DNA from: Patescibacteria group bacterium
Lineage (GTDB): Bacteria > Patescibacteriota > Minisyncoccia > Phycocordibacterales > Zambryskibacteraceae
Assembly: GCA_038061835.1 (NCBI GenBank)
Contig: JBBTYJ010000015.1
Coordinates: 3,907-67,906, forward strand
Reading direction: 5' to 3'
DNA: 64,000 nucleotides
The notes under the pieces were generated by a model. The model was given only the letters and a program-made list of their open reading frames with translations. It was not told the DNA's origin and made no database searches. Below, one piece after another: positions 9,169-34,033 of the stretch. How positions within the stretch are numbered: position 1 is the stretch's first letter; each line of letters opens with the position of its first letter. A program made the translations under genes and the position numbers.

Positions 9169-9732
9169 ATGGAACAGACAGAGAGTCTTTATGTTAATAA
9201 GACTAATGTACACCTTGAAACACCTGATTATCGACTGTTTGCAAAACCGTACGGGCCCCTTTATCCAGAAGCCACCGGGAGGATTTTTAGACTTGAGCAC
9301 CATGAATCCTCACCATCAAGTGTTTCCTACATTAAATCGATCGCTCCTATTATCTTTGACTTTAAGATAAGCGAAGAGTTACCAGTCAAAGTATACTACG
9401 AAGCAATGATTGATAATGAAAGAGTACTCATGGTTCGAATCGAGTATGGACAGTATGAACGTCTCATCGACCTTCAGAAAAGGAATGGGAACTGGCTCCT
9501 TTTGTTTCTTTGCACACCAAGATGCCTATTAAGTGAGGGGGCTAAAAGAGCTAAACTCATCATGATCATGCTTGATTCAGAGTATGCTTTCCGAGAAGAC
9601 ATGACGGCGGAAGAAAGGGATGCACTAGATGTTGAACGTCAGTCATTCGCGATGCGAATGGGCTGGACGCAAATGAGTATCCCCGAACTAGAGAAACAGT
9701 GCAAAACACTGACCGACAAGCTGCCATACTAA
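9169..9732 (+). CDS. Hypothetical protein (orphan plus-strand gene with its own SD and terminator)
   Basis: AAGGAGA SD 6 nt upstream; 330-bp AT-rich upstream region; followed by a terminator; no recognisable domain. Confidence 0.5.
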   Translation: MEQTESLYVNKTNVHLETPDYRLFAKPYGPLYPEATGRIFRLEHHESSPSSVSYIKSIAPIIFDFKISEELPVKVYYEAMIDNERVLMVRIEYGQYERLIDLQKRNGNWLLLFLCTPRCLLSEGAKRAKLIMIMLDSEYAFREDMTAEERDALDVERQSFAMRMGWTQMSIPELEKQCKTLTDKLPY

Positions 9733-24760: not shown

Positions 24761-26059
24761 ATGAGAGTGTTCTTCATTTCCAAAGATCTGATTGCCGGTA
24801 ATTTGGCTTATCTACTTAAAAAAGAGGGACACGATGTGAGACTTTTTATTGATGAAAAGGGCCGCAAGGGTAATTTTACAAATCTTGTTCAGAAAGTTAA
24901 TACCATTAAAGGGGGCGTATCATGGGTTGGTAGAGATGGTTTAATCATTTTTGATGATGTGGGATACGGTAAGATGCAAGATAAATTAAGAAGCATGGGT
25001 TACTTGGTGGTGGGAGGGTCAGAATTAGGAGATAAATTAGAACTAAATAGAGAATTCGGACAAAAGATTTTCGCTGAGCATGGCCTTAAAACAGTACCCT
25101 TAAAGAATTTTGAGGATTTAGATGATGCCGCAGTTTATATAAAAAATAATCCGGCTCCATGGGTTATAAAGAAAAATTCTGGCTCTACCAAATTCATCAG
25201 TTATGTTGGCCAACTTGAAAACGGACAAGATACTTTGGATCTGATAAAAACTTATTTGAATGATAAAACCACAAGTGGCGCCAAGATTTCGTTACAAAAA
25301 AGAGTTGATGGAGTGGAAATAGGAGTGGGAAGATTTTTTAATGGTAACTGTTGGGTTGGTCCGATTGAGTTCAATATTGAGTACACGAGATTTATGCCGG
25401 GCGATATTGGTCCTATCACTAGTGAAATGGGAACCCTGGCATGGTACAGCGAAGATGAGCAGAATAAGCTTTATCAAGAAACTATAGCCAAGCTTGAACC
25501 ATATTTGAAAAAAATTAATTTCAAGGGTGACTTTGAACTTAATTGTATGGTCAATGAATCTGGCGCCTATATTTTAGAGGCAACATCGAGATTCGGATCG
25601 CCAATTGTACATCTACAAACGGAAATACATGAATCCCCTTGGGGTAAATTTCTTTTGGCTTTGGCGAAAGGAGAAAATTATGATTTAAAGTGGAAAAAGG
25701 GTTATGGAATGGTGCTGTGTCTTACGACTCCGCCGTTTCCATATCCAAAGAAATCGAAAGATAATTATTCATACGGAATTAACATACACCTTGAAAATAT
25801 TAATAATGCAGATATGACACACATTCACTTTGAAGAAGTTTCGGCGAGAATGGATAATAGTAAACAGTTATATATTTCAGACAACAGAGGATATATTTTA
25901 TACGTGACTGGTATAGGTAGTTCTGTCATCGAAGCGCAGAAAAAAATATATGAATTGACCAGTAAAATAATTATTCCTAAAGTTATATATAGAAACGATA
26001 TTGGCTCAAGTTTCGCAAACAAGAACGAACAACTTTTAAGAAAGTGGGGATATTTATAG
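24761..26059 (+). CDS. ATP-grasp protein, phosphoribosylamine--glycine ligase (PurD)-like
   Basis: Collinear with PurD; ATP-grasp segment PWVIKKNSGS. Confidence 0.55.
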   Translation: MRVFFISKDLIAGNLAYLLKKEGHDVRLFIDEKGRKGNFTNLVQKVNTIKGGVSWVGRDGLIIFDDVGYGKMQDKLRSMGYLVVGGSELGDKLELNREFGQKIFAEHGLKTVPLKNFEDLDDAAVYIKNNPAPWVIKKNSGSTKFISYVGQLENGQDTLDLIKTYLNDKTTSGAKISLQKRVDGVEIGVGRFFNGNCWVGPIEFNIEYTRFMPGDIGPITSEMGTLAWYSEDEQNKLYQETIAKLEPYLKKINFKGDFELNCMVNESGAYILEATSRFGSPIVHLQTEIHESPWGKFLLALAKGENYDLKWKKGYGMVLCLTTPPFPYPKKSKDNYSYGINIHLENINNADMTHIHFEEVSARMDNSKQLYISDNRGYILYVTGIGSSVIEAQKKIYELTSKIIIPKVIYRNDIGSSFANKNEQLLRKWGYL

Positions 26060-26087: not shown

Positions 26088-26612
26088 TCAGGATGCCGAT
26101 TTGACTGCGCGAATGATCCATTCACTCGCAGTCAGTCCAGAAAAAACCGCAGTTGTCCACCAGGCGTTGGAAATGACAAAAGATATCAAAAAAACTTTCC
26201 AGTCTTTTCTCGTCATCCCATTGTACTGGTGAGCGCCTTGTCTTAAGTAAACGACGCAGACAAACGGATCCCAGTAGACGGAGATGGCTAATACAACCAC
26301 CATGTCCCCTTTTGATAGAATCCATTTGAGAATTCCGTGAAAAATCCCGGTTTCTTCCGCGTCTCTTACTTCTTTTATAGTCTCAATCCCCAACCAGTCC
26401 ACCTTACACCAATCGTAAAACAAAATGGTAAAGTAACAGACCAGTAAAGAAAGCAGCCACATGACTGCCGCTCCCCAGATAAGTCCGAGGAACCATAGGA
26501 CTGATGGGTATAATACGAGATTAAACCCTTTCACCATTAGGAAGTTGGCCGTATGGCCAATTCCCCATAAACCAATGCATCTTTTCCAAGACGAAAGATT
26601 TTGAGAGACCAT
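26088..26612 (-). CDS. Hypothetical polytopic membrane protein
   Basis: Multiple hydrophobic helices, Trp-rich; no recognisable domain. Confidence 0.4.
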   Translation of the reverse strand: MVSQNLSSWKRCIGLWGIGHTANFLMVKGFNLVLYPSVLWFLGLIWGAAVMWLLSLLVCYFTILFYDWCKVDWLGIETIKEVRDAEETGIFHGILKWILSKGDMVVVLAISVYWDPFVCVVYLRQGAHQYNGMTRKDWKVFLISFVISNAWWTTAVFSGLTASEWIIRAVKSAS

Positions 26613-26818: not shown

Positions 26819-28846
26819 TTAATTTTGATTGAGTTGATCATAAATAAAGGACCATATATCAGCATATTGTTCTACGTATTTATTAATACCATTTGCCCCG
26901 CCATGACCAGCATTTTCTTCAACTCTTAATAAAATTGGGTTAGATGTCTTTGATTTTTTTTGTATTTTTGCTACAAACTTATAAGCATGCATCGGATGCA
27001 CTCTATCATCTTGTTTTGCCGTGAGAACAAGAACGGCCGGGTAAGATATACCTGTATTGATATTATAATAGGGACTAAATTTCAAAAGATTCTTTAAATG
27101 TTTTTTGTTGTTTGGATCGCCATAATCAGAAATCCAATATTTGCCACCGTCAAATAAATGATATCGAATCATATCCAAAACAGGCGCGCCAATAATGGCT
27201 ACCTTACAAATATTTGGATGTTGAGTTATTACACTGCCAATTAAAAGTCCACCATTACTCCATCCAAAGATAGCAAGTTTGTTATAATTGGTATACTTCT
27301 TTTTTACTAGATAATTGAGCCCTGCGGTAAAATCATCAAAACTATTTTGTTTTTTAAATAGTTTTCCATCATCATGCCATTTCTGACCATATTCACCCCC
27401 GCCTCGTATATTGATTTCCACGTATATTCCGCCATCTTCCAAAAAAGGAATGATGTTTGCATGAAAATGCGGAGTTATTGAAAGACCAAACCCACCATAA
27501 CCATAGACCAAAGCAGGATTATTACCATTCTCTTTTAATCCCCTTTTATACACAATAAACATAGGCACTGACGTCCCGTCCTTTGATTTAAAAAATTCTT
27601 GCCTTATCTCTACTTTTTTAAAATTAAAAGGTAATTTAGCTTGAAAAAATATTGTTGGATCTTTTTTCTCAAGAGCAAGATTAAAAATGGCTGCCGGAAA
27701 AGAATACGACGAGAACATAAAGAATAAATGATTACCTTCTTTTTCTCCTCCCATGGTTGATATGGTACCCTTTGTTGGTAGGTTAATTTTCCTCTTAAGC
27801 CTACCTTCCAAATCATAGACATAGAGTCGTGAAGATGCATTCTCCAAGACCTCAACAAAAAGTCTGTCTTTAATAAAACAGATGGACTCTTTTTTATCCT
27901 TATCTTCTCCTAAGATTGTTTTCGGAGCTAATCGACCTAGTTCTAAATTAGAAATTTTTGCTTCTTGCACTTTCCAGTTTGGTGCGCCTTTGTTTGTTAA
28001 AAAATAGACAGAATCACGATGTATATAGGCATAAGAAAGATGGTTTTCCTTTTTTAATATTTCTACTATTTTGTTATTTTTATCACTAGTTTTACCTAAA
28101 AACATTTGCGTTGTTTCTTTTTCTTTTGAAGAATTATAAACAGAAATAATAAAATATTTACCATCTTCTGATATGCTTATCGTAGGCCAATCTGTTTTCT
28201 CAGTTTTGTTTCCCAACAAACACTGATCTTTCTTAAAATTATCTCCGATCTTATGAAAGTATATTTTCATATTTAACTTTTCTTCAGTTTTTGGTGATTT
28301 TAGATTAGAGTGTCTGTACCAAAAACCATTTCCATGGCTGTTCCAACACATAAAATATGGATATATGTAATCAGGTATATGGTTTTTCAAAGTAACTTTA
28401 TTTTTGACATCAAAAGTAAAGATTGAAGTTTTGTCATTACCACTTTTTGATAAAGAGTATGCCAATCTGGTTCCATTCTTATTCGGGATCCAAGATTCTA
28501 AAATATATCCAGATCTTTTGAAAATTGACTCACTATTTATTAGCAGGACTGGTTTTTTTGAACCTTTCTTTATGATGTAGACTGAACCGATTTCCTCACT
28601 TCTCTTTCTCCAACTAAAAAAAGTGTTGCCGTTTTTAATTACAGGAAGAGATTTACTTTCAACATTTTGTAGAAGTTTTATCCTTTTAACTAATGAGCTC
28701 TTGTATTTGTTTTGTAAAAAATACGCATCAGCTTTCTGTTGTTCTAATGTTAGCCACTTTCTTGTTTTTAGTGTATTTTTTTCTAAAAATTGAAAAGGGT
28801 CTGAGTTGTTTTTGTTTTGTTTACTACCTCTCATATTCATAATCAT
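26819..28846 (-). CDS. Prolyl oligopeptidase (S9A family)
   Basis: N-terminal DPFQFLE...W...QN, beta-propeller region, catalytic GWSNGGLL (GxSxGG), C-terminal hydrolase Asp/His region; 675 aa; markedly AT-rich by eye relative to neighbours. Confidence 0.85.
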   Translation of the reverse strand: MIMNMRGSKQNKNNSDPFQFLEKNTLKTRKWLTLEQQKADAYFLQNKYKSSLVKRIKLLQNVESKSLPVIKNGNTFFSWRKRSEEIGSVYIIKKGSKKPVLLINSESIFKRSGYILESWIPNKNGTRLAYSLSKSGNDKTSIFTFDVKNKVTLKNHIPDYIYPYFMCWNSHGNGFWYRHSNLKSPKTEEKLNMKIYFHKIGDNFKKDQCLLGNKTEKTDWPTISISEDGKYFIISVYNSSKEKETTQMFLGKTSDKNNKIVEILKKENHLSYAYIHRDSVYFLTNKGAPNWKVQEAKISNLELGRLAPKTILGEDKDKKESICFIKDRLFVEVLENASSRLYVYDLEGRLKRKINLPTKGTISTMGGEKEGNHLFFMFSSYSFPAAIFNLALEKKDPTIFFQAKLPFNFKKVEIRQEFFKSKDGTSVPMFIVYKRGLKENGNNPALVYGYGGFGLSITPHFHANIIPFLEDGGIYVEINIRGGGEYGQKWHDDGKLFKKQNSFDDFTAGLNYLVKKKYTNYNKLAIFGWSNGGLLIGSVITQHPNICKVAIIGAPVLDMIRYHLFDGGKYWISDYGDPNNKKHLKNLLKFSPYYNINTGISYPAVLVLTAKQDDRVHPMHAYKFVAKIQKKSKTSNPILLRVEENAGHGGANGINKYVEQYADIWSFIYDQLNQN

Positions 28847-28864
28847 GCACTTCTGTGCATTAAA

Positions 28865-28900
28865 AGTGAGTAGCTTCTCGGTTCCGAAAAACTACTCACT
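28865..28900 (-). terminator. Terminator/attenuator-like hairpin in the leader of the prolyl oligopeptidase gene
   Basis: On the minus strand: AGUGAGUAG-18 nt loop-CUACUCACU followed by UUUUAAU, 20 nt before the POP start. Confidence 0.4.
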
Positions 28901-28917
28901 CGTGCCCACGTATCCGA

Positions 28918-28980
28918 CTAATTCGGACGTGGTCGCGGAAGATGCGGCGGTCTTTCCGGCGGTTTTTTATCGTTCCCCAT
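28918..28980 (-). CDS. Candidate proline-rich leader peptide (20 aa) with consensus SD
   Basis: AAGGAGGTG SD then AGGAAA then ATG; translation MGNDKKPPERPPHLPRPRPN; stop lies within a 10-bp hairpin. Confidence 0.4.
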   Translation of the reverse strand: MGNDKKPPERPPHLPRPRPN

Positions 28981-29018
28981 TTTCCTCACCTCCTTTCTAT
29001 ATTAAAGTCTGACCTTAA

Positions 29019-29046
29019 TATAATACAAGTAACACTCTAGTGTCAA
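29019..29046 (-). promoter_or_regulatory. Sigma70-like promoter TTGACA-N17-TTATAT driving leader peptide and prolyl oligopeptidase
   Basis: Hexamers read on the minus strand; spacer 17. Confidence 0.45.
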
Positions 29047-29080
29047 TGGCAACCGCAAATTTCCCACACTGCAGTCTTCT

Positions 29081-29132
29081 TATATAAAAAAGAGGGGCAG
29101 TCACCGTATAAAGCATGTGGTGACTACCCCTC
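29081..29132 (-). terminator. Rho-independent terminator for the upstream minus-strand membrane-protein gene
   Basis: Minus strand GAGGGGTAGTCACC-loop-GGTGACTGCCCCTC followed by TTTTTTATAT. Confidence 0.7.
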
Positions 29133-29145
29133 TGGACCCATGGGA

Positions 29146-29595
29146 TCAGACTGGGCGCTTTCTTAGGCGAAAGTTTTTCATCGAAAGCGTTGATCGCGCC
29201 ATCTTTTTAAGACGCGATATAAATGTGCCGAATCTCCAGGGCCAACTCCTGAAATCCCACTGTTTCAAGTCGGTTGCCATTAAGCAACTGATAATGACGA
29301 GGACAAAGAAAGTTACGCGCAAAGTGATTGTCCAGTCAGGAAAATAACTTCGGGAAAGCGCTAGAACTCCAGAAAGGACAAGCAAAACAGAGACATAACC
29401 AATCCCAAGTGTCCAAGTCATGCTTGGCTTATCCTGTTCGTCATCATCTACATCTGGGATACCGGAGGGGTACAAAGCCCTCGATACACAACCGATGTAG
29501 ACAGCGGTCGAACACAACACGAGAAAAAGTATCCCGAAGATTGACCCGATAAAAACCATAATCCACCGCCACGAAATCAGTGCCAAAATTTCCAT
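29146..29595 (-). CDS. Hypothetical membrane protein (4 TM)
   Basis: Hydrophobic helices; start taken at MEILALISW. Confidence 0.45.
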   Translation of the reverse strand: MEILALISWRWIMVFIGSIFGILFLVLCSTAVYIGCVSRALYPSGIPDVDDDEQDKPSMTWTLGIGYVSVLLVLSGVLALSRSYFPDWTITLRVTFFVLVIISCLMATDLKQWDFRSWPWRFGTFISRLKKMARSTLSMKNFRLRKRPV

Positions 29596-29729: not shown

Positions 29730-29800
29730 GGGCCTATAGTTCAGTGGCAGAACGTAGCATTCGCATTGCTGAAACGGCGGTCCGATTCCGCCTAGGTCCA
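29730..29800 (+). tRNA. tRNA-Ala (anticodon CGC)
   Basis: Acceptor GGGCCTA/TAGGTCC with G3:U70, D-stem GTTC/GAAC, anticodon stem TAGCA/TGCTG with loop TTCGCAT, T-stem GGCGG/CCGCC, discriminator A; CCA not encoded. Confidence 0.8.
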
Positions 29801-29843
29801 CTGCTTCGCCGAGGCTTCGCAGTGCACAGCACTAATTGGTAAG

Positions 29844-30239
29844 TTAATAAATGTTATCCTTTGGATACCTTGTGCCTCTTTTTATAAAATTGGTTTCAAC
29901 ATTTTTCAGAGTAAATTTTTCTTTGAAATACTTGGTCAAAAAATCGGTATCCATACCGTTTCGGCAGCTGTAAACATCAACGCTGACAAAACCGCGCAGA
30001 GGAAAGGTATGAATACTGATATGGCTTTCGGCAATAATGACAAAACCCGTCCAACCGCCGGGATCTTTGTTATCATTACTCGGCGCATTGACCACTTGTG
30101 GCTCTACCAAAACTTCCATACCGAGCAAACTTGGAAGAGTATTAAGAATCTCTAATATAAGATTTTTATTATCTAAAAAAATTTTGTTTCCACCATAACC
30201 GTCGATAGTTAAATGTTCTCCAAAGTGCATTGGGGTCAT
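29844..30239 (-). CDS. speH: S-adenosylmethionine decarboxylase proenzyme (bacterial/archaeal SpeH type)
   Basis: GFVIIAESHISIHTFP self-processing region ES|H; 131 aa. Confidence 0.85.
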   Translation of the reverse strand: MTPMHFGEHLTIDGYGGNKIFLDNKNLILEILNTLPSLLGMEVLVEPQVVNAPSNDNKDPGGWTGFVIIAESHISIHTFPLRGFVSVDVYSCRNGMDTDFLTKYFKEKFTLKNVETNFIKRGTRYPKDNIY

Positions 30240-31102
30240 TATAACCCTAATTTCTTTAATTCTTCAACAATTTTATGAGCTTCTTTAGAAAGTTTTTCCG
30301 GTATTTGAACGGAAATACGAATATATAAATCACCGCGACTCTTGGAACCTGCGCCATGCGGCACTCCCTTACCCTTCACTCGCAGAATACTTCCGTGTTT
30401 AGTACCAACTGGTATCTTCAGAGTAATTTCTCCATCGAGGGTATGAATAACTTTTTCTGCACCAAGAAGCGCTTCGGTCAGCTTAACATCCAAATCCATG
30501 ATCAAGTTATATCCTTCTTTGCGAAGATATGGATGCTTTCTGACATGCACTTTGACATAAAGATCTCCCGGCACTCCCCCGTCCAAAGTTTCTCCCATCC
30601 CTGAGAGTCGGATCATTTGGCCGCTATCAATACCGGGCGGGACATTAATAGACACCTCTTTTTGCTTCACGAATTTGGAATTAATTACCACTTTTCTCTC
30701 CGCGCCGAACACCGACTCTTGGAAAGAAAGTTCGATATCCACTGCGATATCCCGTCCGCGTCTCACACGACGACCGCCAAAAATACTTGAGAGAATGTCT
30801 CCCAGATCCTCCGTATCGAAACCGGTATTTTTAAAACCTGAGAAATCAAACCCTAAACCAGACGAATCAAAACCTGCGCTTCCTTGGAATCCGCCAGTGC
30901 CGGTTGCACCAAAAGCGTCATATTGAGCGCGCTTCTTTTTATCGGAGAGCGTAGCATAAGCCTCGCTTGCTTCCTTAAACTTTGCTTCATCACCGCCAGA
31001 CTTGTCTGGATGATGAACATGCGCCAGTTTACGAAAGGCCCTTTTTATTTCCTCCTCGCTCGCATTCTTATTGACTCCTAGAATTTTATAGTAATCTTTC
31101 AT
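30239..31102 (-). CDS. DnaJ-family co-chaperone lacking Cys-rich zinc-finger domain (CbpA-like)
   Basis: J-domain DYYKILGV...HPDK, G/F-rich linker, C-terminal substrate-binding domains; no CxxCxGxG repeats. Confidence 0.8.
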
Positions 31103-31139
31103 TTATTATTATAATGATATTTATTTGATTCTAGCATAC

Positions 31140-31168
31140 TTGACATAGATTATCAAGTATGCTATCAT
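31140..31168 (+). promoter_or_regulatory. Sigma70 promoter TTGACA-N17-TATCAT
   Basis: Consensus -35, 17-nt spacer, near-consensus -10; downstream AAGGAGG SD and GTG start. Confidence 0.5.
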
Positions 31169-31205
31169 GGTGGGTAGAATTAAATCTCTCGACAAGGAGG
31201 AAACC

Positions 31206-31544
31206 GTGGACAAGTTCTTTGCTGGAGGTGTTATGACCTTGATTGTTCTCGTCGTGGTGGGCTACGTCTATGTAATGACCCCACCGTGGGTGAAGAAGGA
31301 TCTGATGGATAATGCCGCTGTGGCGGTCGGGCGTCAGGTCGTAGAGAAGAGTGATTGTGGTCAGATAGTGAGGGTAAGAGTGTACAAGAGACCAACCTTC
31401 AGCACCTTCCCGCCAGATATACTCTTCACCTCGTACAAACATCATGTTGTACTCGAAGATGGACGAAATAGGACATTCGATAGCTATTCTATCTACCGGG
31501 TCGGTTGGACCCACTGCATCTTCTGGACCGAGTACATCAAGTGA
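31206..31544 (+). CDS. Hypothetical small membrane-anchored protein; GC-elevated; inserted antisense between dnaJ and dnaK
   Basis: AAGGAGG 5 nt before GTG; translation VDKFFAGGVMTLIVLVVVGYVYV... The track ORF start at 31167 lies inside the -10 box, so the GTG start is preferred. Confidence 0.45.
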   Translation: MDKFFAGGVMTLIVLVVVGYVYVMTPPWVKKDLMDNAAVAVGRQVVEKSDCGQIVRVRVYKRPTFSTFPPDILFTSYKHHVVLEDGRNRTFDSYSIYRVGWTHCIFWTEYIK

Positions 31545-31603
31545 TGGTCAAGTCCCGCTTCAAACAAGGCCTCGTGCCTGTTTGGACGGGGCTTTTGTTT
31601 TGT

Positions 31604-33499
31604 CTAAACTTTTGGTTCCGTATCGTCTTTCTTCTCTTCTTTGACTTCCGCATCTTTGACCTCGGGTTCGCCAGATTTTTGACCGGAAGAATCAGCGGGA
31701 GGATTCTTACTCATATACTCACCAATCCTCTGCATTTCCGACGAAAGAGCCCCAGTGGCGGATTTGATAGAGTCCAAAGCGCCGGAATCTTTCTCCTTCT
31801 TTAAAGCAGTTATTTTATCATTGACCGCAATCTTAATATCTTCCGGAACACCGGCGTTATCTTTCAGAGATTTTTCCGCCGTATAAATCAGCTGTTCGGC
31901 AAGATTTTTAGCATCTACCAAATCTTTTTTCTTCTGATCTTCTGTAGCATTAGCTTCTGCATCCCTTTGCATCTTCTCAATCTCATTTTTCGACAAACCG
32001 GAACTTGCTTCTATTCTAATGGACTGCTCCTTGCCAATCGTTTTGTCTTTGGCTTTGACATTTAGAATACCGTTAGCATCTACATCAAAGGTGACTTCTA
32101 TTTGAGGCATACCGCGTGGAGCGGGCGGAATACCGTCAAGAATAAATCGACCGAGAGATTTGTTGTCGGCGGCCATGGCGCGCTCACCTTGCACAATATG
32201 TATTTCGACGGAAGTCTGACTATCAGCCGCGGTTGAGAATATTTGTGATTTTGCGGAAGGAATAGTGGTGTTTTTCTCGATGAGCTTAGTTGCCACCCCA
32301 CCCATCGTTTCAATTCCTAAAGAGAGAGGAATCACATCGAGTAAAAGCACATCTTTGACATCGCCGCGGAGAATTCCTCCTTGGATAGCGGCGCCGAGCG
32401 CCACCACTTCGTCCGGATTTATGGATTTATTCGGTTCTTTCCCAAAAAACTTTTTGACCGCCTCTACGATAGCCGGCATGCGCGTCTGACCTCCAACCAA
32501 AATCACCTCATGTAAATCACCTATTTTGAAAGGAGATGCTCCCATGGCTCGTTTAGTAATATCCATGGCTCGATTGATAAACTCTCCGGACAGTTCTTCA
32601 AGTTTTGCTCTTGAAAGTTTCAGAAGCAAATGTCTTGGACCGGATGCATCGGAAGTGATGAAGGGTATATTAATTTCGGTTTCTGTTGCGGTGGAGAGCT
32701 CAATCTTGGCCTTCTCGGCAGCTTCGTCGAGTCTTTGGAGCGCTAGGGCATCCGTTCTGACATCAATACCGGACTCCTTCTTGAATTCTTCTGCAATATA
32801 ATTGAGAATCTTTTGATCAATATCTTTGCCTCCTAAATGAGAATCGCCATCAGTGGATTTTACTTCGACCACATCATCTCCCACTTCAAGAATGGAAACG
32901 TCAAAGGTGCCGCCCCCAAAGTCAAAGACGGCAATTTTTTCATTCTTCTTTTTGTTAAAACCGTAGGCTAAAGCCGCGGCAGTCGGTTCATTAATGATAC
33001 GCTTAACGTCCAGTCCGGCAATTTGACCTGCATCCTTGGTGGCCTGACGCTGCGAATCGTTAAAATAAGCCGGCACAGTGATAATGGCCTCCGTAATTTT
33101 TTCTCCCAGTTTAGCTTCGGCATCTGTCTTTAATTTTTGAAGAATCATGGCAGAAATTTCCTCCGGACGATAATCCTTATCAGACATTTTCACCAGAACT
33201 CCACCAGTCGAACCGGTCTTCACTTCAAAAGGCACCGTGGCCTTATCTTTCTGTACAGCAGGATCGGAAAAAGTGTGACCGATAAACCGCTTAATGCCAA
33301 AAATTGTATTTTTAGGATTAGTAACTGCCTGACGTTTGGCTAAAAGACCCACCAAGCGATCACTTGTTTTAGAAATAGCAACAATAGAAGGAGTGGTGCG
33401 CGCTCCTTCGGCATTTTCTATAATTCTCGGCTGGCCCGCTTCCATCACCGCTACAGCCGAATTTGTGGTGCCGAGATCAATACCAATTATTTTTGCCAT
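31604..33499 (-). CDS. dnaK: Chaperone DnaK (Hsp70)
   Basis: [22 protein letters not shown], canonical Hsp70 throughout; 631 aa. Confidence 0.95.
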
Positions 33500-33511
33500 A
33501 TATTTTGTAAA

Positions 33512-34033
33512 TTAATTTGTAATAAATTCTCCCACTTTTACCTTTGCCGGACGAATCATTTTACCATTCAATCTATATCCCTTCCGTAAAACCTCGAGTA
33601 CTTTATGGTCTTCTTCACGCTTATCCGTCGGAATCATGGTCAGCGCCTCGTGTTCTTGCGGACTGAAGATCTTGTTGATTGGATCAAGTTCCTCTAGACC
33701 ATTAGCCTTAAGCACCGCCGTCAGTTGATTATATAGGGGCTCAAAATCTTTATGACCCTGAACAAGAGCTATATTAAAACTATCGAGCACAGGAATCAAT
33801 TCCTCAATTAAAGATAAGTTAGCAAACTTGATAAATTCAAGTTTAGATTCTTCATCGCGCCTGCGAAGATTGGTAAAATCCGCTTGCGCCCTCTGCCAAC
33901 CATCCAGATATTCTTTAGCCTTAATTTCAGCCTCTTTTAAACGCATTCGAAGCTTTTTCAACACCTCGGATGAAGCTGTTAAATCCGGATCGTCCTCTAT
34001 TACGATATCGTCATTTTCCTCTTTCATATTCAT
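33512..34033 (-). CDS. grpE: Nucleotide exchange factor GrpE
   Basis: Coiled-coil N-terminus then the GrpE core ...WQRAQADFTNLRRR...; 173 aa. Confidence 0.85.
   Translation of the reverse strand: MNMKEENDDIVIEDDPDLTASSEVLKKLRMRLKEAEIKAKEYLDGWQRAQADFTNLRRRDEESKLEFIKFANLSLIEELIPVLDSFNIALVQGHKDFEPLYNQLTAVLKANGLEELDPINKIFSPQEHEALTMIPTDKREEDHKVLEVLRKGYRLNGKMIRPAKVKVGEFITN

What the first reader, a model, noticed from the sequence alone, without database searches (positions are those of the whole stretch)
28847..29060. Textbook promoter + SD + proline-rich leader peptide + hairpins upstream of an AT-rich prolyl oligopeptidase gene
On the minus strand, TTGACA-N17-TTATAT is followed by the perfect SD AAGGAGGTG and a 20-codon ORF encoding MGNDKKPPERPPHLPRPRPN, with 8 Pro and two PP pairs. 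Its stop codon is embedded in a 10-bp hairpin (CCACGT..ACGTGG). A 9-bp-stem hairpin plus UUUUAAU follows, 20 nt before the prolyl oligopeptidase ATG.

The architecture matches leader-peptide attenuation, with proline-rich stalling (EF-P dependent) as a plausible sensor, a neat functional link to a proline-specific peptidase. The prolyl oligopeptidase gene itself (26819-28846) is visibly more AT-rich than its neighbours, suggesting acquisition.
Basis: partly seen in the sequence, partly recalled or inferred. Interest (0 to 1): 0.6.

Follow-up and report, generated by a model that had tools for sequence, protein, structure and literature searches.

The report
Oncocin-like peptide gene beside prolyl oligopeptidase
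An ultra-small groundwater (Patescibacteria/CPR) bacterium has a conserved 20-codon gene in front of its prolyl oligopeptidase, and the peptide it encodes carries the same core sequence that lets insect and mammalian proline-rich antimicrobial peptides (oncocin, Bac7) plug the bacterial ribosome, so it looks like a peptide with its own function paired with its own peptidase and not only a proline-sensing leader.

Summary
The described features are all present: promoter, perfect Shine-Dalgarno (SD) site, 20-codon ORF, stop-codon hairpin, strong hairpin plus UUUUAAU, and an AT-rich prolyl oligopeptidase (POP). Corrections: 7 Pro not 8, and the stem is 17 bp not 9.

The small ORF (sORF) is a real gene. 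Four variants sit upstream of the only four POP lineages with at least 51% identity:
- MGNDKKPPERPPHLPRPRPN (window)
- MAEDKKPPERPPTLPRPRPK
- MEDDKKPPERPPWLPRPRP
- MGYLYADKPGVDKPPHLPRPRPR

Differences in the PPxLPRPRP core are all synonymous except at x. About 50 more distant POP loci lack the sORF.

The core matches the ribosome-binding core of type I PrAMPs. The fourth variant shares 11 of 13 residues with oncocin (VDKPPYLPRPRPP).

Classical attenuation is poorly supported:
- There is no conserved antiterminator.
- The stop-codon hairpin is not conserved.
- The stop-to-hairpin spacing varies from 9 to 29 nt.
- A natural allele with an identical POP protein has lost exactly the SD and sORF but keeps the promoter and hairpin.

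Best reading (about 0.45): a mobile two-gene module. It would comprise a highly expressed PrAMP-like peptide, a leaky terminator that sets the peptide:enzyme ratio as in mccA, and a cytosolic POP that trims or destroys the peptide. A cis-acting arrest peptide is the main rival. Nothing comparable turned up in the literature searched. All functional claims are inferred.

The parts
29086..29130 (-). Intrinsic terminator of the upstream ORFan membrane-protein gene: a 12-bp stem GGGGUAGUCACC/GGUGACUGCCCC followed by UCUUUUUU. It insulates the module from upstream transcription.
   Evidence: Read directly from the sequence.
29017..29046 (-). Sigma-70-type promoter: TTGACA, 17 nt, TTATAT (or 18 nt, TATATT).
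   Evidence: Best promoter match in the region at 11/12. The -35 box, spacing and -10 box are conserved in L115, L001/L129, L128 and L002.
28987..28996 (-). Shine-Dalgarno site AAAGGAGGTG, 6 nt before the ATG.
   Evidence: This is one of very few strong SDs in a window where most genes have none. The same SD and spacing occur in L115, L128 and L002.
28918..28980 (-). Small ORF encoding MGNDKKPPERPPHLPRPRPN (20 aa, 35% Pro, net charge +3). Residues 11-19, PPHLPRPRP, form the PrAMP-like core.
   Evidence: Orthologous variants are in L115, L128/L131 and L002/L075/L102/L120-122. Synonymous changes dominate. Similarity to oncocin and Bac7 is shown.
28906..28932 (-). Hairpin spanning the sORF stop codon (CCACGUCCGA / UCGGAUACGUGG). 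It is lineage-specific.
   Evidence: It is reduced to 4 bp in L115 and absent in L002.
28858..28901 (-). 17-bp hairpin with a GAAC loop plus UUUUAAU. Read as a terminator-like element (leaky terminator or transcript stabiliser) between the sORF and POP.
   Evidence: One search gives z = -8.1. Equivalent hairpins with different stem sequences occur in L115 (z -3.9), L002 (-3.75) and L001/L128 (-5.1). An A-U to G-C double change between the window and L115 keeps one pair intact.
28845..28860 (-). Small 6-bp hairpin overlapping the first ATG of the POP ORF. Found only in the window lineage; probably incidental.
   Evidence: It is not present in L115, L001 or L002.
26819..28840 (-). Prolyl oligopeptidase (S9A), 673 aa, with no signal peptide and no SD. 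An alternative upstream ATG lies at 28846.
   Evidence: Both Pfam domains hit. The closest solved structure is Myxococcus xanthus prolyl endopeptidase 2bkl, E = 6e-120, and the GWSNGG, DDRV and GHGG catalytic motifs align. The start was set by alignment with L115 and L001 and by the 673-aa gene call.

Best explanation
The sORF and POP form a self-contained, occasionally mobile two-gene module. The sORF product is the point of the module and is more than a translation sensor.

Steps shown by the sequence:
- A strong promoter drives a first cistron that carries one of the genome's rare perfect SD sites.
- That cistron encodes a 19-23-aa cationic Pro/Arg peptide. Its sequence ...DK(K)PP..PPxLPRPRP(x) is held by purifying selection.
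- A stable hairpin with a short U-tract follows.
- POP lies behind the hairpin with no convincing promoter and no SD of its own.

Steps inferred:
1. The hairpin is a partial terminator or stabiliser. It would give many short peptide transcripts and few read-through POP transcripts, as in the mccA-terminator-mccB arrangement of microcin C.
2. The free peptide binds the ribosomal exit tunnel and A-site cleft in the manner of type I PrAMPs (oncocin, Bac7, Tur1A). Its PPxLPRP stretch is the segment that superposes in all PrAMP-ribosome structures, and x is the residue that stacks on C2452/U2504.
3. POP is a cytosolic endopeptidase generally regarded (established S9A biochemistry, my own knowledge) as restricted to peptides of about 30 residues or fewer. 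The window peptide offers it five Pro-Xaa bonds. POP would act on the peptide in one of two ways. It could trim the 8-10-residue N-terminal extension, for example MGNDKKPP|ERPPHLPRPRPN or MGYLYADKP|GVDKPPHLPRPRPR. Or it could degrade the peptide, giving self-protection or turnover.

Whether the peptide is aimed at a host or competitor cell or throttles the producer's own ribosomes is left open.
For: Coding selection:
- There are four variants. The alignment of three of them has M, D, K, PP, L, P, R, P, R, P invariant, and the fourth (L128) agrees by eye except for its GTG start.
- The window and L002 differ in 6 of 9 core codons, and all six changes are synonymous.
- The window against L115, and the window against L128, each show 5 synonymous changes. 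Non-synonymous changes fall only at residues 2-3, position x and the last residue.

Linkage to POP:
- The sORF is found in all four POP clusters with at least 51% identity, out of 5.8 billion proteins.
- It is absent from 6 CPR POP loci at 40-45% identity. It is also absent from 43 further genome loci, most at about 29-38% identity.
- The neighbouring genes differ between lineages.

PrAMP likeness:
- L002 residues 11-23, VDKPPHLPRPRPR, against oncocin residues 1-13, VDKPPYLPRPRPP, give 11/13 identities. None of 3000 composition-preserving shuffles reached this.
- The window peptide against Bac7(1-16) gives 9/16 identities, p about 0.02.
- Onc112 residues 4-10 and Bac7 residues 7-13 (PPYLPRP and PPRLPRP) adopt the same ribosome-bound conformation. 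Residues 14-19 of Onc112 are disordered.
- Tyr6His and Tyr6Trp Onc112 are reported as slightly more active on some E. coli strains. The natural x residues here are H, W, T and H.
- C-terminally truncated oncocin (Onc15) stays active, and oncocin made inside E. coli is growth-inhibitory.

Architecture precedent: mccA, intrinsic terminator, mccB, with an abundant short transcript.

S9A peptidases and PrAMPs: E. coli oligopeptidase B is reported to cleave PrAMPs (reference cited).

Presence/absence polymorphism of the sORF with an identical POP, and an IS element next to the module, fit an accessory peptide gene with an orphan partner.
Against: - There is no experimental datum. Ribosome binding, POP cleavage and termination are all inferred.
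- Only four sequence variants exist, all from one narrow Parcubacteria clade.
- As encoded, 10-13 residues precede the PPxL core, against 3 in oncocin and 6 in Bac7. The PrAMP N-terminus is critical for binding, so processing must be assumed.
- One variant has Thr at x, which cannot stack.
- For the window peptide alone, the similarity is only modestly beyond composition (p about 0.02).
- No exporter or uptake gene is conserved with the module, which argues against a classical secreted bacteriocin.
- A canonical POP would also cut inside the core (P12-H13, P15-R16 and so on).
Confidence: 0.45

Rival explanations
1. Cis-acting ribosome arrest peptide. The nascent or just-released peptide ...PPxLPRPRP(x) jams its own ribosome in the tunnel near or at the stop codon. 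The stalled ribosome then changes read-through of the hairpin or stability of the transcript, and so sets POP expression, possibly in response to a small ligand. This would be in the manner of TnaC, SpeFL, SecM or ApdA.
For: - The conserved motif is C-terminal and ends 0-1 residues before the stop codon in all four variants.
- The sORF lies directly upstream of POP with a hairpin between them.
- Arg/Pro-rich sequences bind the tunnel in either orientation. RxPP, PR repeats and polyproline are described as self-inhibiting for translation.
- Before the 3' arm is made, the terminator 5' arm can pair with ORF codons. This resembles the mccA case, where ribosome occupancy decides termination.
Against: - The ORF-arm pairing is not better than chance.
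- The stop-to-hairpin spacing is 9-29 nt, and the stop-codon hairpin is not conserved.
- POP has no SD that could be masked or unmasked.
- The type II PrAMP hallmark, a penultimate Arg that traps the release factor, is absent: the penultimate residue is Pro or Arg-Pro-stop.
- The deletion allele keeps the hairpin and POP unchanged.
- The close match, including the N-terminal VDK, to type I PrAMPs, which bind in the reversed orientation, would be a coincidence under this model.
Confidence: 0.25
2. One reading: a classical leader-peptide attenuator that reads proline supply or EF-P activity through 7 Pro codons and two PP pairs. Stalling would switch an antiterminator/terminator pair and induce the proline-specific peptidase.
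For: - Pro codons are dense: 6-7 in each of the four variants.
- There is a terminator-like hairpin before POP.
- CPR bacteria depend on scavenged peptides (general knowledge), so a link between Pro supply and POP is plausible.
Against: - No alternative structure is conserved.
- The number of PP pairs is not conserved: 2 in the window but 1 in L002.
- Non-Pro residues (L, R, R, D, K) are conserved while Pro codons change synonymously between CCG, CCA, CCC and CCT. These codons are presumably read by different tRNA-Pro species (inference).
- With the only candidate pairing, stalling at PP would cover the ORF strand and favour termination, the opposite of induction on starvation.
- The deletion allele argues against it.
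Confidence: 0.08
3. The peptide has some other trans function tied to POP. It could be a dedicated substrate or competitive inhibitor that tunes POP activity, a DnaK-binding peptide, or a RiPP precursor that POP cyclises or trims, as POP-family enzymes do for amatoxins and orbitides and as FlaP does in a class III lanthipeptide cluster (my own knowledge).
For: - The peptide-POP pairing is conserved.
- PrAMPs with YLPRP bind DnaK, and dnaK-dnaJ lie 1.3-4.5 kb upstream in the window.
- POP-family macrocyclases (PCY1, GmPOPB, OphP) appear among the PDB relatives.
Against: - The POP is much closer to ordinary hydrolytic POPs (E = 1e-120) than to the macrocyclases (about 1e-75).
- No other RiPP enzyme is conserved alongside it.
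- The dnaK neighbourhood is not shared by L002 or L128.
- These models do not explain why the sequence copies the ribosome-binding core so precisely.
Confidence: 0.12

Closest known systems
Type I proline-rich antimicrobial peptides: oncocin / Oncopeltus peptide 4, pyrrhocoricin, metalnikowin (insects); Bac7, Tur1A (mammals)
   Same: - Length is about 20 aa, with at least 25% Pro, a net positive charge and overlapping PRP motifs.
- The core PP-x-L-P-R-P-R-P matches Onc112 residues 4-12 and Bac7 residues 7-15.
- L002 even carries the VDK that precedes the core in the insect peptides.
- The variable x is the position that is Tyr in the insect peptides and Arg in Bac7.
   Different: - It is encoded by a bacterium (Patescibacteria) as a stand-alone 19-23-codon gene with a bacterial promoter and SD. 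It is not part of an animal pre-pro-protein.
- It has a longer N-terminal extension and no C-terminal uptake tail.
- It is paired with a cytosolic POP.
- Activity and target are untested. The 2026 literature still describes PrAMPs as encoded by mammals and insects.
Microcin C mccA / intrinsic terminator / mccB arrangement
   Same: A tiny, efficiently translated peptide gene is followed by an intrinsic terminator in the intergenic region. The gene after the terminator encodes the enzyme that acts on the peptide. The short transcript is abundant and the read-through transcript is minor, and upstream ORF RNA can pair with the terminator.
   Different: - The peptide and the enzyme are unrelated to those of microcin C: a peptidase here, not an adenylyltransferase.
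- There are no export or immunity genes.
- Termination was not measured here, and the pairing is not statistically supported.
Regulatory arrest / leader peptides (TnaC, SecM, SpeFL, ApdA/ApdP; trp/his-type attenuators)
   Same: A short ORF lies immediately upstream of the gene it could control. It has a conserved C-terminal, Pro-containing motif close to the stop codon, and a terminator-like hairpin follows.
   Different: - No conserved alternative RNA structure or fixed geometry links a stalled ribosome to the hairpin.
- The downstream gene has no SD to unmask.
- The leader is dispensable in a natural allele.
S9A peptidases acting on PrAMPs or peptide precursors (E. coli oligopeptidase B; POP-type RiPP peptidases)
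   Same: It belongs to the same peptidase family, S9A. That family is generally regarded as restricted to short peptides (my own knowledge). Oligopeptidase B is reported to degrade PrAMPs.
   Different: The enzyme here is a canonical post-proline POP, not the basic-residue-specific OpdB. It scores far below the NCBIfam OpdB cut-off (177 against 1313 bits). Its substrate was not tested.

Membership tests
Type I PrAMP (definition of PMC7736402 Box 1 plus the structural core of PMC4797290/PMC4797285) | At least 25% proline and net charge of at least +1 | tested here: met
   Window peptide 35% Pro, +3. L115 35%, +3. L128 37%, +1. L002 26%, +3. Counted from the sequences; criteria.
Type I PrAMP | PRP motif(s) and the PP-[Y/R]-L-P-R-P core that superposes in the ribosome complexes | tested here: met
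   PP[H/T/W]LPRPRP is present in all four variants. L002 shares 11/13 residues with oncocin (0 of 3000 shuffles reach this). The window peptide shares 9/16 with Bac7(1-16), p about 0.02. The x residue is H, W or T, not Y or R. H and W are tolerated in Onc112; T is untested.
Type I PrAMP | A short free N-terminus (3-6 residues before the core) that occupies the A-site tRNA pocket | tested here: inconclusive
   As encoded, 10 residues (window, L115, L128) or 13 residues (L002) precede the PPxL core. A Pro-Xaa bond that POP could cut lies 2-4 residues before the core in every variant, but cleavage was not tested.
Type I PrAMP | Antimicrobial activity with an intracellular target (70S ribosome and/or DnaK) | not testable with these tools
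   This needs synthetic peptide, in vitro translation or toeprinting, and MIC assays.
Type I PrAMP | Product of animal innate immunity, made as a secreted pre-pro-peptide | tested here: not met
   It is encoded in Patescibacteria MAGs with a bacterial promoter and SD and has no signal or pro region. It therefore works like a PrAMP at most. It is not a member by descent as far as can be shown.
Type II PrAMP (apidaecin/drosocin) | Penultimate Arg that contacts the release-factor GGQ motif; binds in the nascent-chain orientation | tested here: not met
   The C-termini are RPN, RPK, RP and RPR, so the penultimate residue is Pro (Arg in the L128 variant, where Pro is last). Criterion.
Leader-peptide transcription attenuator (trp/his type) | Short translated ORF enriched in the regulatory codon | tested here: met
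   6-7 Pro codons out of 19-23. However, the non-Pro residues are equally conserved.
Leader-peptide transcription attenuator (trp/his type) | Intrinsic terminator between the leader and the structural gene | tested here: met
   Hairpins have z from -3.75 to -8.1 and a U-rich tail in all lineages. The U-tract is short (4-5 U), and termination itself was not measured.
Leader-peptide transcription attenuator (trp/his type) | Mutually exclusive antiterminator whose formation depends on ribosome position | tested here: not met
   The stop-codon hairpin does not overlap the terminator and is not conserved. ORF / 5'-arm pairing is not better than in synonymous recodings. The spacing is 9-29 nt.
Ribosome arrest peptide regulators (TnaC/SecM/ApdA class) | Conserved arrest motif at a fixed distance from the stall site, and a downstream mRNA element whose state depends on the stalled ribosome | tested here: inconclusive
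   The motif is conserved and ends 0-1 residues before the stop codon (met). No conserved responsive mRNA element was found. Arrest itself cannot be tested here.
Peptide-antibiotic operon with precursor / terminator / enzyme layout (mccA type) | Small, efficiently translated precursor gene, intergenic intrinsic terminator, downstream enzyme that acts on the peptide, plus export and immunity genes | tested here: inconclusive
   The first two features are met. Whether the enzyme acts on the peptide was not tested. No conserved export or immunity gene is present.
Prolyl oligopeptidase, MEROPS S9A | N-terminal beta-propeller plus C-terminal alpha/beta-hydrolase domain with a Ser-Asp-His triad | tested here: met
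   PF02897 (6e-57) and PF00326 (1e-55) both score above their cut-offs. The full-length alignment to 2bkl has GWSNGG, DDRV and GHGG aligned.

The most novel reading that the evidence does not exclude
Candidate Phyla Radiation bacteria encode a genuine ribosome-plugging peptide of the oncocin/Bac7 type. It would be the first prokaryote-encoded PrAMP and would have arisen by convergence on the universally conserved A-site cleft and tunnel. It comes packaged with a dedicated prolyl oligopeptidase that matures it or protects the producer. The cell would use it either against the host or competitor it lives on or to throttle its own translation. The H/T/W variation at the residue that stacks on C2452 would then reflect target adaptation.
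Probability: 0.35. Interest if true: 0.9.

Novelty: new variant of a known kind. Interest (0 to 1): 0.75.

Why it matters
PrAMPs are regarded as products of animal innate immunity, and the literature searched here describes them only in animals and plants. A bacterial version, in the poorly understood and mostly episymbiotic CPR, would matter in several ways.

- It would show a third independent convergence on the same ribosome-binding sequence.
- It would give a natural minimal pharmacophore of 12-14 residues, with natural H, W and T variants at the key stacking position.
- It would suggest a way for ultra-small bacteria to control a partner's or their own translation.
- It would identify POP as a natural processing or resistance enzyme for this antibiotic class.

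It is directly testable with a few synthetic peptides and standard toeprinting.

If the peptide instead acts in cis, it would be a new arrest-peptide regulator of a peptidase, in a phylum where almost no gene regulation has been characterised.

Tried and rejected
RNA families:
- An Rfam scan of the region at E <= 10, and of the whole window at gathering thresholds, found only tRNA-Ala(CGC) at 29730-29801 and no known leader or riboswitch. The tRNA is not tRNA-Pro.

Searches for more copies of the peptide:
- A viral-contig scan for PP[HY]LPRPRP gave 26 hits. All are off-frame stretches or lie in GC-rich ORFs, and none is a short SD-led ORF.
- A metagenome scan with the same motif plus 'x-stop' gave 42 hits. 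Only 2 are real, and both are identical to L002. This pattern was too narrow: it would miss the T and W variants and the variant with no residue after RPRP.
- tblastn of the peptide against plasmids and phages found nothing relevant.
- An exact look-up found only an unnamed 30-aa N-extended call of the L002 peptide.
- Six-frame motif matching found no second PrAMP-like ORF in the window.

Tests of the attenuator model:
- The antiterminator hypothesis was tested by co-transcriptional folding and by 2000 synonymous recodings per locus. It was not supported.

Tests of partner genes and context:
- The flanking 149-aa membrane ORF was considered as a possible exporter or immunity gene. It is an ORFan present only in this population and is absent from relatives, so it was rejected as a conserved partner.
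- PADLOC gave no defence-system match for POP or its neighbours.
- NCBIfam gave only sub-threshold OpdB and Dpp5 hits for POP.
- The L002-lineage POP annotation of 703-710 aa extends through the sORF in another frame. I judged this a gene-calling artefact, since 46 open codons in AT-rich DNA is not unusual.

Literature:
- Searches for PrAMP together with Patescibacteria/CPR, and for 'bacterial PrAMP' and similar phrases, found no prior description.
Full report
OBSERVATION

- TTGACA at 29046-29041, 17 nt, then TTATAT. This is the best promoter match in the region at 11/12.
- AAAGGAGGTG at 28996-28987, 6 nt before the ATG at 28980.
- A 20-codon ORF ending at TAG 28920-28918 that encodes MGNDKKPPERPPHLPRPRPN.
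- A 10-bp bulged hairpin with the stop codon in its loop (28932-28906).
- A second hairpin at 28901-28864 followed by UUUUAAU.
- The prolyl oligopeptidase (POP) ORF.

The segment with the hairpins folds at -45.3 kcal/mol, z = -8.1.

Corrections:
- The peptide has 7 prolines, not 8.
- The second stem has 17 pairs, not 9.
- The POP start shared with relatives is the second ATG at 28840, giving 673 aa.

POP hits both S9 Pfam domains. It aligns end to end with Myxococcus xanthus prolyl endopeptidase 2bkl at E = 6e-120, and the catalytic motifs are intact. It has no signal peptide.

Its GC content is 31.9% against 41.1% for the window, among the lowest 2-kb stretches.

ORGANISM AND CONTEXT

The window is from a Patescibacteria (CPR) MAG. 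An identical locus occurs in a Hainich groundwater assembly.

Most genes in the window have no Shine-Dalgarno (SD) sequence, including dnaK, dnaJ and POP. The sORF has a perfect one. POP's missing SD is therefore normal for this genome, and the sORF's SD is the exception.

IS THE SMALL ORF REAL?

Among 5.8 billion proteins, only four POP clusters have at least 51% identity to this POP. The sORF, or a fresh deletion of it, sits upstream of all four:
- Window: MGNDKKPPERPPHLPRPRPN.
- L115 (72% POP identity): MAEDKKPPERPPTLPRPRPK.
- L128/L131 (77% cluster): MEDDKKPPERPPWLPRPRP, starting at a GTG placed at the same distance from the same SD.
- L002 and five identical loci (51%): MGYLYADKPGVDKPPHLPRPRPR.

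Each copy has a TTGACA-type promoter, a GGAGGTG SD site and a following hairpin.

Between the window and L002, six of the nine core codons differ, and all six changes are synonymous. Against L115 and against L128 there are five synonymous changes each. Replacements are confined to residues 2-3, one core position (H/T/W) and the last residue. This is selection on the peptide sequence. It is not selection on RNA structure or on Pro codons alone.

Six CPR POP loci at 40-45% identity lack any such ORF, as do 43 further genome loci, most at about 29-38% identity. The surrounding genes differ between lineages. The conserved unit is therefore sORF, hairpin and POP.

The peptide is essentially unannotated. 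Gene callers place antisense ORFs over it or run POP through it.

WHAT THE PEPTIDE LOOKS LIKE

The core PP-x-L-P-R-P-R-P, preceded by D-K, matches the ribosome-binding part of type I proline-rich antimicrobial peptides (PrAMPs):
- Oncocin: VDKPPYLPRPRPPRRIYNR.
- Oncopeltus peptide 4: VDKPPYLPRPPPPRRIYNNR.
- Pyrrhocoricin and metalnikowin.
- Bac7(1-16): RRIRPRPPRLPRPRPR.
- Tur1A..RPPYLPRP...

L002 residues 11-23 share 11 of 13 positions with oncocin 1-13. None of 3000 composition-preserving shuffles reached 11 against a nine-peptide panel. The window and L115 peptides share 9 of 16 positions with Bac7(1-16), p about 0.02 and 0.01. So part of the resemblance is composition, and the rest is order.

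Published ribosome structures show the following:
- Onc112 residues 4-10 and Bac7 residues 7-13 adopt the same conformation.
- Tyr6 (Arg9 in Bac7) stacks on C2452/U2504 and is buttressed by the following Leu.
- Residues 14-19 of Onc112 are disordered.
- The N-terminus is critical for binding.

The one variable core residue here, H/T/W, is exactly that stacking position. Tyr6His and Tyr6Trp Onc112 were reported as slightly more active on some E. coli strains. C-terminally truncated oncocin remains active, and oncocin produced inside E. coli inhibits growth.

All four peptides meet the compositional PrAMP criteria of at least 25% Pro, net positive charge and PRP motifs.

They do not carry the type II hallmark, a penultimate Arg.

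The differences from known PrAMPs are real:
- Ten to thirteen residues precede the core.
- One variant has Thr at the stacking position.
- The host is a bacterium.

TESTING THE ATTENUATOR READING

A strong hairpin with a U-rich tail lies between the sORF and POP in every lineage. The stem sequences differ, and one A-U to G-C double change separates the window from L115. The hairpin is therefore a selected structure, and POP, with no convincing promoter of its own, probably depends on read-through.

The rest of an attenuator is missing:
- The stop-codon hairpin is strong only in the window.
- The spacer from the stop codon to the hairpin is 16, 21, 9 or 29 nt.
- Before the 3' arm is transcribed, the terminator 5' arm can pair with ORF codons. 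That pairing is no stronger than in synonymous recodings of the same peptide.
- Contigs carrying a 100% identical POP protein (P0125) exist in two forms, one with the sORF and one with a clean 74-nt deletion. The deletion removes exactly the SD and sORF and leaves the promoter and hairpin in place. An IS transposase follows POP in these relatives, and the upstream neighbour differs between the two forms.

A presence/absence polymorphism of the small gene beside an unchanged partner fits an accessory peptide gene better than an indispensable cis regulator. It does not exclude the regulator.

MOST LIKELY MECHANISM

Shown:
- A real, strongly signalled small gene.
- A conserved hairpin.
- POP behind the hairpin.
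- The three travel together as a unit.

Inferred:
- The hairpin acts as a leaky terminator or stabiliser, so that peptide mRNA exceeds POP mRNA. The documented precedent is mccA, intrinsic terminator, mccB.
- The released peptide binds the ribosomal tunnel and A-site cleft as type I PrAMPs do.
- POP cuts the peptide. POPs are generally regarded as acting only on short peptides (my own knowledge), and this peptide offers Pro-Xaa bonds. POP could remove the N-terminal extension: a cuttable bond lies 2-4 residues before the core in every variant. Or it could destroy the peptide for self-protection or turnover. A related S9A enzyme, E. coli oligopeptidase B, is reported to degrade PrAMPs.

No conserved exporter exists. 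An intracellular role, or delivery by contact or lysis, therefore has to be considered.

I give this reading about 0.45.

RIVALS
- A cis-acting arrest peptide that sets POP read-through: about 0.25. It is helped by the C-terminal position of the motif and by the known ability of Arg/Pro sequences to bind the tunnel in either orientation. It is hurt by the lack of any conserved responsive RNA element.
- The original proline-supply / EF-P attenuator: about 0.08.
- Other trans roles (POP substrate or inhibitor, DnaK ligand, RiPP precursor): about 0.12.
- A non-functional ORF takes the small remainder.

NOVELTY

Rfam has no matching family. Literature searches found no report of a bacterial or CPR PrAMP. 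A June 2026 paper still describes PrAMPs as encoded by mammals and insects.

Whichever reading is right, this is a new variant of a known kind. It is either a prokaryotic PrAMP-like peptide with a dedicated POP or a new arrest or leader peptide controlling a peptidase in CPR bacteria. It can be tested with a few synthetic peptides.

Noticed in passing
whole window; e.g. 31604-33499 (dnaK), 30239-31102 (dnaJ), 26819-28840 (POP): Most genes in this genome have no SD sequence. Strong SDs are confined to a handful of ORFs: the sORF, 29146-29595, 26088-26612 and 9169-9732. Three of these four cluster around the POP locus.
   Followed up: partly
window 29146-29595 (-): A 149-aa predicted membrane protein with a strong SD and its own strong terminator lies immediately upstream of the sORF promoter. 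It is an ORFan: the only match among 5.8 billion proteins is itself. It is absent from the syntenic relative L001/L130.
   Followed up: yes
L128 3286-4019, L129 2971-3704, L131 2642-3375; L001 between 6031 and 7430: An IS-type transposase (rve/DDE, 349 aa) directly follows POP in the 77%-identity lineage. The gene upstream of the module differs between contigs that carry an identical POP: an ATP-grasp gene in some, SAM decarboxylase plus tRNA in others. The module's neighbourhood is therefore being rearranged.
   Followed up: partly
L129 ~620-640 and L001 ~3925 versus L128 ~850-925: A clean 74-nt deletion removes exactly the SD and sORF. It leaves a residual non-homologous ORF (MERVATQTRGFSGLGNPLF) that runs into the hairpin. 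The breakpoints lie in short A-runs.
   Followed up: yes
L002 3845-5977, L120 3001-5112: In the L002 lineage the POP reading frame stays open for 46 codons upstream of the homologous start, across the hairpin and the sORF in another frame. Public annotations therefore give a 703-710-aa POP and hide the sORF. Elsewhere, antisense ORFs are called over the sORF (L115 17-259, L120 2785-2898).
   Followed up: partly
window 30239-34033 (-): A grpE-like gene, dnaK and dnaJ lie 1.3-5 kb upstream of the sORF. PrAMPs with YLPRP are also known DnaK ligands. The proximity is shared with L001 but not with L002 or L128, so it is probably coincidental.
   Followed up: partly
window 24761-26059 (+): A PurD-like ATP-grasp protein scores well below the purD equivalog cut-off (120 against 288 bits) and lies in the same low-GC stretch. 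It is near POP in the window and in L001, and directly adjacent and divergent to the sORF-POP module in L128. It is not present near L002.
   Followed up: no
window 28941-28948 versus 28987-28993 (-): The His-Leu-Pro codons CAUCUUCC are complementary to the sORF's own SD GGAGGUG and pair with it in the minimum-free-energy fold of the window transcript. In L002 the same codons instead match the terminator 5' arm. This could be autoregulatory pairing or simply a consequence of CCN-rich coding.
   Followed up: partly
window 29730-29801 (+): tRNA-Ala(CGC) lies between the SAM decarboxylase gene and the ORFan, on the opposite strand. It is the only Rfam or ARAGORN hit near the locus.
   Followed up: yes
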